The position numbers are program-made. This document shows, piece by piece, positions 39,501 through 42,500 of a stretch of DNA of 64,000 bases (its first letter is position 1; every line of letters begins with the position of its first letter). Source of the stretch: Myxococcota bacterium (GTDB taxonomy: Bacteria > Myxococcota_A > UBA9160 > JAFDDA01); assembly GCA_965228475.1 (NCBI GenBank), contig OZ245817.1:2464001-2528000 (forward strand), read 5' to 3'.

Positions 39501-42500
39501 ATCCTACTGGGCATGGGCGCGACCACGCGGTCCGCCACCCCACAATCAGAACTAGGCAAACAGACGAAGAAGTACGGGAGGCCGTCCAGAAAGAAATTGA
39601 GAAGCAACGAACTCTTCCGTGCCTTGTCAAAGTTCTTAGTGCTGAGCGATACGGAGTCGGACCCGACTGTCTCCAAATACGCGGTCTCGGGATCATCTGA
39701 GCGATGCCTAGCCCCAGAGAGGGGAATACGCTCGCGGCACACCCTGGCTAGAACCGCCTGGATCTCTTTGGAATCCTTGATTGCGCTGGCGTGAAGCTCA
39801 TCAATGACACCCGGAGCTATCGGCTGCCCTAGGCGGTACGTAGGAGAGGTCTGCACGAGGGCCTTTCTCAGTTGAGACGGAGCCTGGAAGGGAACGCAAA
39901 TCCGGCCGTCCTCGACCGATTCCGCCGATCCATCCCGTTTCGCAGGGGCGTGTCGAGCGCTCGCAGGCGCGAGAGGATCTCGACGACCGCGGCGCGGTCT
40001 GCGATGGATTGTCGGTGGAGGGCGCCGAAGGTCGGCTGAGGATTCAGCTGGGTCATGCATCCTTCTTCCGTGAAGTCCGCGCGTAGCCAAGTGGTTGCGA
40101 AACCGCATTCTACTTACGGTAGAAGAAGGGATTCAAGCTGTAGTTGCGAGTTTGGGGTGATAACAACGCGGACTCAGGGCCCGCGGCTGTCCACCTTCTC
40201 GAGCTTCACCCCGGCGTCCGAGAGGATCTCGAGGGAGCTTTCCCCCAGCGGGTAGTCGCCGTTGTAGATCACGGCCACGATGCCCGCGTTGATGATCATC
40301 TTGGTGCACTGCAGGCACGGAGACATCGTCGTGTAGATCGTGCCGCCGCGGACCGGGACCCCGTGGTACGCGGATTGGACGATGGCGTTCTCCTCGGCGT
40401 GGGAGCACAGGCAGGTATCGAGCCCCGCCCCGCTCTGCCCGAAGGCGTTGCAGCGCGGGCAGCCCCCTTCGTTGCAGTTGCGCACGCCGCGGGGGGTGCC
40501 GTTGTAGCCCGTGGCCACGAGCCGGCGATCGATCGTGATGACGGCCCCGACCTTGCGCTTCACGCAATTGCTTCGAGATGCAGCCACCTCGGCAATGTTC
40601 ATGAAGTACTCGTCCCAGTCAGGGCGCTCGAAAAAAAGCGAGCGGGAGAGGATGGTCTGGATCGCCTTGTGGAGTTCCTCCTTGCCGCCGTCGTTGCGCA
40701 GGGTGAAGTCCGCCAATGCCTGGACGGCCGCCATCTGCTGCCCGGCGGCGTTCTCGCCCCCGCGCTCCCGGCCTTCGAGCTCCTTCAGGCGCTCGAGGGT
40801 CTCCGGGTCACCCGGGCGGGCCCTGCCCTTCAGGCGCTCGAGCCGGGTCTCCATGTCTGCGTCGACCCACACGAGCTTGAAATCGCCGTGGGCCTCGCGA
40901 AGGGTCTCGACCTCCGCGGGGTGGCGAACGGAATCGACGACGTAGTTGCGGTCCGGCGCGAGCTTGTCGAGCAGGCGGACGGCCAACGCCCCCGGGCCGT
41001 AGCGCTCGCGCAGCTGGGTGCCGACCTCGATCATGCGCTCGCGCGATTCTTCGAGCCCGCGCTCGCGCAGCTCGTCGCGCAGGACGTCGGAAAGCGAGAG
41101 CGCATAGAAGCTCCGGCTTTCGAGGTACGCCATGACCTCGCCCTTGCCTGCACCGTAGGGCCCCGAAAGACCGAGAATCATGGTGTTCCCCCCTCCCCTC
41201 ACTTATCCCGGTGCGCTGCGGGGGTCAAGCGTTCCGGCTCCGGACCGGCCTCGGCGAGCTTGGCCGGCCCCAGGAGCGGAGACTCGCTCACTTCCGGCGG
41301 CTGGCGAGAAGCAGAAGGCCCGCGAAGCCCGTGGCCATGGCCAGCAGGCTGCCCGGCTCCGGTACCGGCAGGCTCACGTTCGTGAATGTGATCGTCGTGA
41401 AGATCGGGAACTGGTTGCCGAGGACTGAGACGAAGGTCGGCGAAACCAGCGTAAGCGGGCCCGAGGCGCCCGCTAACGTGACGATGTTCGTGCCCGAGTT
41501 CACCGCGCCGACTCCCGTGCTGAAGACGGCGGCGTCTATCGTGAAGGGCGAGGCCGTGGCACCCCCCTGACCGAGCTGAGCCGCGTTCAGATCGACCGGG
41601 ATCGGGACGATGACCGGAGTGAAGACGTTCACGAAGCCGTCGAGGCCCATGGCCCCACCGACACCGCCACCCGTGTTGCAGGCGATGCCCGGTGCGACGC
41701 CGCCACCGCACACTTCCCCTGGAGCATGGACCGTCACGCCACCGGCCGAGAACGTGCCAGCCTGGTTGCTGATGGTCATGGCGGCAATCGAGTTGATCGC
41801 CGTGGTGGAGGTTACGGGCACGACGACCGGAGCCGGCAGCGAAACGGTGCCAGCAGCAATCGACACGGTGCTACCGGACACCGAAACCGTTCCGACTTCC
41901 GAGAAGGAAATCGGGCTCAAGCCCTGAATCGTCAGCGTGAAGATGATGTTCGTCGCTACCGGCGCCGCCTGGACGACTCCGCTCACCAAGAGCGACCACG
42001 CGGCCACGATTCCGAAGAACCAACTCACGAAAGCTCCTCCCAGCCTGCGGCAACGCCGTCTCCGGACGCCGCGACGACTGACGGAGCCTTCCGCGCCGCG
42101 GCTCCCGAGGCCGCACCGGCCTCGAGTCACGACCCTAACACAGGACTCGGGCGGGCTCGGTACCGGCGCCTAGGCCTCGAGCATCGTCACGAAGAGCTCG
42201 CACATGGCTTCGACCTGGGCGGTCTCGACCCACTCGTCGGCGGTGTGGGCCTGATCGATCGAGCCCGGACCCATCACCACCGAGGGGATGCCTTCGGCCT
42301 CGAGGATGCCGCCGTCGGTGCCGAAGGCCACCGTGCCCGGCGCCGTTTCGAGGCCGTGGCGGCGTAGCGCCTCCTGGCAGGCCAGCAGCGCGGGGGCGTC
42401 TTCCGCGGTGCCGAGGGGCGCCTTCATGCGATCGCAGCGCTCGATGGCGACGCAGTCCGCCGCCCCCGAGGCCGCGAGCGCCTGCTCGAGTTCGGCGCGC

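What a model noticed while it worked through the whole genome (the two positions that open the first line are those of the whole stretch)
40174..41181. No Cmk: a core archaeal-type P-loop kinase fused to dCMP deaminase is the candidate cytidylate kinase
Cytidylate kinase (cmk) is missing from this genome and from the whole order sample. g02237, a UPF0200-type P-loop kinase fused to a dCMP deaminase, is instead a universal single-copy gene; where the deaminase half is lost the kinase half stays. It has the architecture of anti-phage dCTP deaminases but behaves as a housekeeping gene, and its kinase domain is the best candidate for (d)CMP phosphorylation.
Evidence so far: No cytidylate-kinase Pfam here; PF02224 0 of 5, TIGR00017 0 of 31, controls ring. 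g02237 once in 31 of 31: full fusion in 28, kinase part alone in 3. Kinase half hits SSO1041/UPF0200 structures (E 7e-12; call 178); whole protein scores below cut-off on the anti-phage deaminase model (151 vs 400; call 197) and hits PADLOC dCTPase. CoaE, Adk, Tmk, Gmk and PyrH are separately present. Searches 181, 221 found no such replacement.
(Added by a program. Inside this text positions count along the whole contig: contig position 2,464,001 is position 1 of the stretch shown here. "Call 12" and the like, gene names such as g00115 and contig names such as C1 are that model's own, and its searches are not shown. The text may have been shortened before it was handed on; [...] marks where a part breaks off. 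The agent that wrote the report below was given it as the finding of a first reader that could run no searches.)

Follow-up and report, generated by a model that had tools for sequence, protein, structure and literature searches.

The report
Deaminase-fused kinase replacing cytidylate kinase
This bacterium lacks the usual enzyme that recycles cytidine nucleotides and instead carries a different kinase joined to a dCMP deaminase, and the two kinases largely exclude each other across several bacterial groups, so this is probably an unrecognised type of cytidylate kinase, although no one has yet measured its activity.

Summary
The gene (40174-41181, minus strand, 335 aa) is real. It joins an intact P-loop kinase (closest structure SSO1041; phage dNMP-kinase profile) to an intact dCMP deaminase. 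The genome has no Cmk of either family, and cmk's usual slot before rpsA is empty.

Kinase and Cmk exclude each other:
- Own phylum: 70 kinase, 128 Cmk, 0 both, of 201.
- Acidobacteriota: 59, 90, 0 both, of 151.
- An RpoB tree needs 9 swaps (4 forced by strong branches).
- Gmk, Tmk, Adk and CoaE are retained.

Against: in Omnitrophota 22 of 60 kinase genomes have a Cmk-family hit, mostly cluster paralogs or giant-protein domains but 3 in the normal operon; 4 of 4 archaea with the fusion keep archaeal Cmk.

Best reading: a non-orthologous (d)CMP kinase, often fused to the deaminase that shares its substrate (about 0.72). The substrate is inferred, not measured. It is not an anti-phage gene. The architecture is known (AvcD/DcdV, fungal Dcd1), and four earlier scan reports on other DNA called it housekeeping. 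I found the Cmk link in neither those notes nor the papers searched.

The parts
40174..41181 (-). Gene for the 335-aa kinase / dCMP deaminase fusion (P0001)
   Evidence: GC3 0.90, like core genes. AlphaFold two-domain model, mean pLDDT 89.5.
40642..41181 (-). P-loop nucleoside-monophosphate-kinase domain (aa 1-180), the proposed (d)CMP kinase
   Evidence: PHROG139 dNMP kinase E 2.5e-16; PRK08356 E 9e-20. Model pLDDT 97; best fold match SSO1041 3lw7, Z 23.3, rmsd 1.7 A over 165 residues.
41140..41163 (-). Walker A loop GPYGAGKG (aa 7-14)
   Evidence: G12 invariant; G7 and K13 conserved in at least 90% of 124 homologs.
40912..40935 (-). DSVRHPAE motif (aa 83-90); R86 and E90 match T4 dNMP kinase R177 and E181 by motif spacing
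   Evidence: R86 and E90 invariant in 124 homologs. T4 residues are listed in PMC10653934 Table 2. The correspondence is my inference.
40192..40629 (-). dCMP deaminase domain (aa 185-330)
   Evidence: PF00383 E 3e-22; PHROG174; PDB deoxycytidylate deaminase 2hvv E 2e-22.
40306..40401 (-). Zinc/catalytic motifs HAEE (H261, E263) and PCLQC (C289, C292)
   Evidence: Invariant in 28 aligned fusions from several phyla.
41190..41199 (-). Shine-Dalgarno-like purine run upstream of the ATG
   Evidence: Read from the sequence.

Best explanation
The N-terminal domain is a cytidylate kinase from a family other than Cmk, and it has taken over Cmk's job.

How it would work:
1. It binds ATP in the P-loop and CMP or dCMP in the NMP site, making CDP or dCDP. 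The fold and the conserved catalytic set are shown; the substrate is inferred.
2. This recycles CMP released by RNA turnover and by CTP-consuming lipid, CoA and isoprenoid steps, and feeds CDP/dCDP towards CTP and dCTP (established role of Cmk, recalled).
3. The C-terminal zinc deaminase converts dCMP to dUMP for thymidylate synthesis. Family and motifs are shown; activity is inferred.
4. The fused protein thus sits at the dCMP branch point, one domain sending dCMP to dCTP and the other to dTTP (inferred).

The kinase, not the deaminase, is the indispensable half: lineages that lose or separate the deaminase keep the kinase. It has moved between phyla, and cmk was lost where it settled.
For: Co-occurrence:
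- Own phylum sample: kinase 70, Cmk 128, both 0, neither 3, of 201; about 45 'both' expected if unlinked.
- Acidobacteriota sample: 59, 90, both 0, neither 2, of 151.
- Omnitrophota: 60 of 61 genomes without the kinase have PF02224; 38 of 60 with it have none.
- 50 fusion-bearing genomes from other lineages: PF02224 in 2.

Independence and specificity:
- RpoB tree of 75 genomes: 9 state changes, at least 4 forced by starred branches.
- In 75 kinase genomes Gmk is in 74 and Tmk in 75; 55 have neither Cmk family. Adk 5 of 5 and CoaE 10 of 10.

Context and anatomy:
- The cmk slot between tyrA and rpsA is empty in this genome.
- Unfused kinases sit directly beside a dCMP deaminase gene in G276, G305, G328, G376 and G028.
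- In family f24 the fusion lies 1-5 kb from tmk in 5 of 6 genomes.
- Two of three operon cmk genes that coexist with the kinase are on long branches, 0.90 and 1.04 against 0.30-0.71, as if under relaxed selection.
- NMP-kinase fold and dNMP-kinase profile.

Precedent: a phage-type dNMP kinase supplies the essential Tmk function in P. putida (PMC10653934, passages).
Against: - No activity has been measured, and the fold does not choose the base: SSO1041 was solved with AMP, and phosphomevalonate kinase (Z 16.6) ranks above UMP/CMP kinase (15.7) and Cmk (13.1).
- Omnitrophota: 22 of 60 kinase genomes have a PF02224 hit. Of 14 examined, 3 are cmk in its usual operon, one of them (G462) apparently intact.
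- A Planctomycetota genome (G228) has both.
- All 4 archaeal genomes tested with the fusion keep archaeal Cmk over the cut-off.
- 20 of 75 kinase genomes hold PF13189 proteins.
- Six genomes have neither enzyme, including 98% complete G152.
- The kinase gene was not seen in cmk's position before rpsA in the loci compared; of cmk's usual neighbours only ispH (4 loci) and hisC (1 locus) were found near it.
- The sign test on supported independent pairs is not significant (4 pairs, p 0.125), and the tree sample was picked from genomes holding one or the other.
- This genome has two PPK2 genes that might phosphorylate CMP.
Confidence: 0.72

Rival explanations
1. The domain is a dCMP-only or broad deoxy-NMP kinase like the T4/T5 enzymes. 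CMP is recycled by Adk, PPK2 or breakdown and salvage, so it replaces only half of Cmk's job.
For: PHROG139 match; fusion or operon with dCMP deaminase; coexists with archaeal Cmk in 4 of 4 archaea; Cmk paralogs in Omnitrophota phosphonate and CDP-alcohol clusters suggest extra CMP demand; Adk and PPK2 present.
Against: Tmk and Gmk are not lost, as a broad kinase might allow. PPK2 is missing from 1 of 5 kinase genomes tested. Zero co-occurrence in 352 genomes of two phyla suggests full redundancy with Cmk.
Confidence: 0.14
2. The P-loop domain is a nucleotide-sensing regulator of the deaminase, and cmk was simply lost as dispensable.
For: Both domains are needed for DcdV activity (bioRxiv 10.1101/2021.03.31.437871, section 10). 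Six genomes lack both enzymes. Cmk is non-essential in E. coli (recalled).
Against: 27 of 70 own-phylum kinases have no deaminase attached. The catalytic residues are invariant. This does not explain why Cmk loss tracks kinase presence through 4-9 swaps.
Confidence: 0.05
3. It is a dephospho-CoA kinase or a kinase for another small molecule, such as phosphomevalonate.
For: Weak CoaE and phosphomevalonate kinase similarity; the gene directly precedes coaD in G305 and G328.
Against: CoaE is separately present in 10 of 10 kinase genomes tested, including G305 and G328. TK1334 and TK2192 lacked this activity (PMC6650551). It offers no reason for Cmk exclusion.
Confidence: 0.04
4. It is an anti-phage dCTP/dCMP deaminase of the AvcD/DcdV kind.
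For: Same domain order; PADLOC dCTPase E 6e-63; a low-GC island starts right after the gene.
Against: 151 against a cut-off of 400, and 335 aa against a 437-position model and 532-aa DcdV. One strong copy in 32 of 33 order genomes. Host-like GC3 and conserved housekeeping neighbours: prmA in 54 and an epimerase in 67 of 88 loci. The deaminase half is the one that is lost.
Confidence: 0.03

Closest known systems
Archaeal arCOG01045 / UPF0200 kinases (SSO1041, PDB 3h0k/3lw7; TK1334, TK2192; PRK08356)
   Same: Closest solved fold (Z 23.3, 27% identity) and profile match E 2e-34; shared motif arrangement.
   Different: Their function is unassigned (PMC6650551). Ours has an insertion carrying the conserved Q148 that SSO1041 lacks, scores below the PRK08356 cut-off (71 vs 189), is bacterial and is often fused to a deaminase.
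Bacterial cytidylate kinase Cmk (PF02224, TIGR00017)
   Same: Proposed reaction; P-loop NMP-kinase fold (Z about 13).
   Different: No match to PF02224; about 180 aa against a 211-position model; not orthologous.
Phage deoxynucleoside monophosphate kinases (T4 gp1, T5 dNK; P. putida PP_1964)
   Same: PHROG139 E 2.5e-16 over the whole domain; R-x3-E motif. PP_1964 is a shown case of replacing a host NMP kinase (PMC10653934).
   Different: There the replaced gene is tmk and the replacement sits in its place. Here Tmk stays, Cmk goes, and the gene is elsewhere. 1dek ranks only Z 12.9.
Anti-phage dCTP deaminase AvcD/DcdV (NF041025)
   Same: P-loop kinase plus dCMP deaminase in the same order (bioRxiv 10.1101/2021.03.31.437871).
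   Different: Shorter, below the cut-off, inherited as a core gene, and the deaminase is dispensable.
Fungal long-form dCMP deaminase (Dcd1 type)
   Same: Ascomycota deaminase clusters score 0.93 by features; the preprint notes eukaryotic homologs.
   Different: Fungi have a separate UMP/CMP kinase (recalled). I did not test whether their N-terminal domain is intact.

Membership tests
Bacterial Cmk | PF02224 match over the cut-off | tested here: not met
   No PF02224 hit on the protein or in the genome; TIGR00017 not among NCBIfam hits.
Bacterial Cmk | ATP-dependent phosphorylation of CMP and dCMP | not testable with these tools
   Inferred from complementary distribution only.
Archaeal Cmk / PF13189 | TIGR02173 or PF13189 over the cut-off | tested here: not met
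arCOG01045 / UPF0200-like kinases | Full-length sequence and fold similarity to SSO1041 | tested here: met
   E 1.9e-34 by profile; Z 23.3, rmsd 1.7 A over 165 residues.
arCOG01045 / UPF0200-like kinases | PRK08356 equivalog cut-off | tested here: not met
   71.2 vs 189 bits.
Phage dNMP kinases | Profile match and NMP-site Arg/Glu motif | tested here: met
   PHROG139 E 2.5e-16; R86 and E90 invariant.
Phage dNMP kinases | PF21448 DNMK match | tested here: inconclusive
   Not hit by P0001 at E 0.01; partial hits in homologs P0062 and P0110.
dCMP deaminase | PF00383 domain with HxE and PCxxC zinc motifs | tested here: met
dCMP deaminase | dCTP activation, dTTP inhibition, hexamer | not tested
   Recalled properties; no assay or complex model run.
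Anti-phage dCTP deaminase (AvcD/DcdV) | P-loop kinase plus deaminase architecture | tested here: met
Anti-phage dCTP deaminase (AvcD/DcdV) | NF041025 cut-off | tested here: not met
   151.1 vs 400.
Anti-phage dCTP deaminase (AvcD/DcdV) | Patchy, island-borne distribution | tested here: not met
   32 of 33 order genomes, conserved neighbours, host-like GC3.
Anti-phage dCTP deaminase (AvcD/DcdV) | Upstream inhibitory non-coding RNA | not tested
   No RNA search run; only about 100 bases separate the ATG from the upstream gene's stop.
Dephospho-CoA kinase CoaE | PF01121 / PRK03333 over the cut-off, as the only CoaE | tested here: not met
   15.8 vs 215 bits; a separate CoaE scores E 4.5e-58 in this genome.

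The most novel reading that the evidence does not exclude
This is a further, unrecognised family of cytidylate kinase, used in place of Cmk by large parts of several bacterial phyla, and the fusion is a single enzyme that splits dCMP between dCTP and dTTP. If so, it is the housekeeping stock from which anti-phage AvcD/DcdV and fungal Dcd1 architectures derive. The unexplained P-loop domain of AvcD would then be a cytidylate kinase, possibly run backwards to drain dCDP into dCMP for deamination. The near-universal archaeal arCOG01045 kinases of unknown function would be NMP kinases. Ancestry and the AvcD step were not tested here.
Probability: 0.3. Interest if true: 0.85.

Novelty: new variant of a known kind. 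Interest (0 to 1): 0.7.

Why it matters
It would fill a hole in core nucleotide metabolism for about a third to a half of the sampled genomes in three phyla (70 of 201, 59 of 151, and 38-60 of 121), whose proteins databases label 'AAA family ATPase' or 'deaminase' and defence scanners flag as dCTPase. It would give a first testable substrate to a kinase clade whose archaeal members are recorded as functionally unknown. It suggests what the P-loop domain of the anti-phage deaminases does. One enzyme assay and one complementation test settle the main claim.

Tried and rejected
In-place replacement: cmk-neighbour genes were compared with 100 kinase loci. Only ispH (4 loci: three Omnitrophota and one unclassified) and hisC (1 locus) were found, so it is not supported.

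Hidden or fused Cmk in this genome: loose searches at E up to 1 gave only P-loop fragments. A P-loop motif scan listed other kinase-like ORFs (C1:4362294, 3911414, 1446058, 2625769), which I did not follow up.

PF13189 proteins as the general substitute: patchy, 20 of 75, and absent here. I did not measure their frequency in Cmk-bearing genomes.

Genomes with neither enzyme: loose re-search of 5 of the 6 found only fragments; G503 was not re-searched.

Viral vector: one viral contig covers aa 71-329 and four match the deaminase only. An unnamed 328-aa viral model matches the kinase at TM 0.90. This is too little to name a donor.

A locus search with the kinase alignment returned no usable pattern, so other phyla were reached with one Acidobacteriota fusion protein. 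That biases the 50-genome set towards fusions.

Literature searches found no paper stating the replacement. Subscription papers are largely outside the library, and the DcdV preprint's supplement (Table S4, homolog architectures) could not be seen. No complex prediction was run.

Full report
THE GENE. Window 40174-41181 (-) encodes 335 aa: a P-loop kinase (aa 1-180) and a dCMP deaminase. Close homologs are from Myxococcota-like metagenome genomes. Walker A, R86, E90 and the lid arginines are conserved in 124 kinase homologs. The zinc motifs H261/E263/C289/C292 are invariant in 28 fusions that span several bacterial phyla and archaea at 40-77% identity. The kinase model (pLDDT 97) matches SSO1041 best (Z 23.3), then phosphomevalonate kinase (16.6), yeast uridylate kinase (15.7), adenylate kinase (15.2), Cmk (13.1) and T4 dNMP kinase (12.9). 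The best PHROG for the domain is the dNMP kinase family. It is an intact kinase of NMP-kinase type; structure alone does not name the substrate.

NO CMK HERE. PF02224, PF13189 and TIGR02173 give nothing over the cut-off, with controls ringing. The operon reads pheA-hisC-tyrA-rpsA-ihfB (names from the translations and recall), with no cmk before rpsA, whereas relatives have cmk beside hisC or rpsA. Gmk, Tmk, Adk, CoaE, a dCTP deaminase and two PPK2 genes are present. PyrH was not tested.

OWN PHYLUM. In 201 genomes at least 85% complete, a strong kinase match is in 70 (43 fused, 27 alone), Cmk in 128, both in 0 and neither in 3. One Cmk genome, G024, has a weak partial hit (E 3e-7) that I did not count. 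The kinase-bearing families are the own class (37 of 38 genomes), f24 (11 of 11, fused), f17 (18 of 18, alone), f38, f44 and f48.

OTHER PHYLA. A distant fusion led to Acidobacteriota, Omnitrophota, Planctomycetota, Elusimicrobia, Nitrospinae, Tectomicrobia and Micrarchaeota-type records. I searched 50 of those 80 genomes: 2 hold PF02224 (completeness not given; 4 are archaea). In 151 Acidobacteriota: kinase 59 (one in two pieces), Cmk 90, both 0, neither 2. Two weak hits (G268, G366) lie in Cmk genomes and were not counted. These counts include three genomes marked unpublished (G211, G393, G273); without them the figures are 57 and 89 of 148.

OMNITROPHOTA, A PARTIAL EXCEPTION. Of 121 genomes: kinase only 38, PF02224 only 60, both 22, neither 1. 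I examined 14 of the 22. Nine are divergent Cmk paralogs in clusters with CDP-alcohol transferase-like, nucleotidyltransferase or phosphonate genes, and a tenth shares neighbours with them. One lies in a long ORF with an altered motif. Three are cmk in the usual tyrA-cmk-rpsA operon: G400 and G497 on long branches, and G462 apparently intact. Of the 8 not examined, 7 lie in open frames of 786-11,110 aa and one is a weak partial hit. This sorting was done after seeing the counts.

ARCHAEA, AGAINST. All 4 archaeal genomes tested with the fusion keep an archaeal Cmk.

INDEPENDENCE AND SPECIFICITY. On an RpoB tree of 75 genomes chosen from those holding one enzyme or the other, the state changes 9 times, at least 4 forced by starred branches. 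The sign test on 4 pairs gives p 0.125 and adds nothing, since the two traits were complementary by choice (five of 80 genomes dropped for missing or partial RpoB). The kinase tree places Acidobacteriota copies in several spots, four of them inside a supported group of own-phylum kinases, which fits transfer (quick tree, no root, donor not determined). In 75 kinase genomes Gmk is in 74 and Tmk in 75, while 55 have neither Cmk family. The missing gene is therefore specifically Cmk.

CONTEXT. The gene has core-like GC3 (0.90) and conserved neighbours in its class (prmA 54, aminopeptidase 49, epimerase 67 of 88 loci), so it is not part of the low-GC island that follows it. Unfused kinases lie next to a dCMP deaminase gene in five genomes. 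The link to dCMP metabolism thus recurs as both fusion and operon. In two of these coaD follows, but CoaE is present.

MECHANISM. Shown: two intact domains, NMP-kinase fold, complementary distribution with Cmk, retention of the kinase when the deaminase goes. Inferred: ATP + (d)CMP gives (d)CDP; dCMP gives dUMP; the fusion partitions dCMP. Recalled: Cmk's role in recycling CMP and supplying CDP for dCTP synthesis. I put 0.72 on full replacement and 0.14 on a deoxy-only kinase.

WHAT IS KNOWN. The architecture is described for DcdV/AvcD, with homologs in archaea and fungi (bioRxiv 10.1101/2021.03.31.437871; passages and section 10 seen, supplement closed). Archaeal arCOG01045 members TK1334 and TK2192 lack dephospho-CoA kinase activity and their function is stated as unclear (PMC6650551, passages). 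A phage-type dNMP kinase replaces Tmk in P. putida and others (PMC10653934, passages). Searches found no paper linking this family to loss of Cmk. Four earlier scan notes on other genomes called the fusion a housekeeping Dcd1-like enzyme, and their summaries do not mention Cmk.

VERDICT. Observation confirmed; interpretation supported and extended to three phyla, with stated exceptions. It works like a cytidylate kinase by inference but is not a member of the Cmk family. New variant of a known kind; interest 0.7.

Noticed in passing
window ~30000-40100: Low-GC island (GC 0.58-0.65; GC3 0.64-0.69) beginning just after the fusion's stop codon. Relatives of its response regulator, histidine kinase and large methyltransferase lie beside the fusion in 22, 25 and 11 of 88 related loci; some of these may be generic signalling paralogs.
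   Followed up: partly
window 37358-40108 (-): 916-aa protein with a C-terminal SAM methyltransferase domain and about 680 N-terminal residues without a Pfam hit, which look like PilZ-like and alpha/beta-hydrolase parts by eye.
   Followed up: no
window 43353-44756 (-): Cytochrome P450-like ORF by its heme-cysteine motif; the Pfam scan returned no family for it.
   Followed up: no
L216-L225 (Omnitrophota): Divergent Cmk paralogs (P-loop DGPSYVGKST type) inside clusters with PEP mutase, phosphonopyruvate decarboxylase, nucleotidyltransferase and CDP-alcohol transferase-like genes; probably dedicated CMP recycling for a phosphonate-lipid pathway.
   Followed up: partly
Omnitrophota genomes (e.g. 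G403, G406, G438, G446, G511): Cmk-like domains inside giant open frames of 2,000-24,000 aa.
   Followed up: partly
L215 (G400) and L226 (G497): Operon cmk genes on long branches, L226 with a changed conserved motif, in genomes that also hold the new kinase: possible displacement in progress.
   Followed up: partly
L325, L326 (G305, G328): dCMP deaminase, kinase and coaD in a row, with CoaE elsewhere in the genome.
   Followed up: yes
L116, L117 (G198, G118): Cmk-bearing genomes with deaminases 55-63% identical to the fusion's C-terminal half and no kinase match; relevant to how the fusion formed or split.
   Followed up: no
P0010, P0013, P0032: Proteins with two tandem copies of this kinase domain. 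Other one-off fusions (Sir2, CutA, response regulator) may be assembly read-throughs.
   Followed up: no
G000:C1:2294758-2300547: aroA as well as cmk is missing from between tyrA and rpsA, where it usually lies (recalled).
   Followed up: partly
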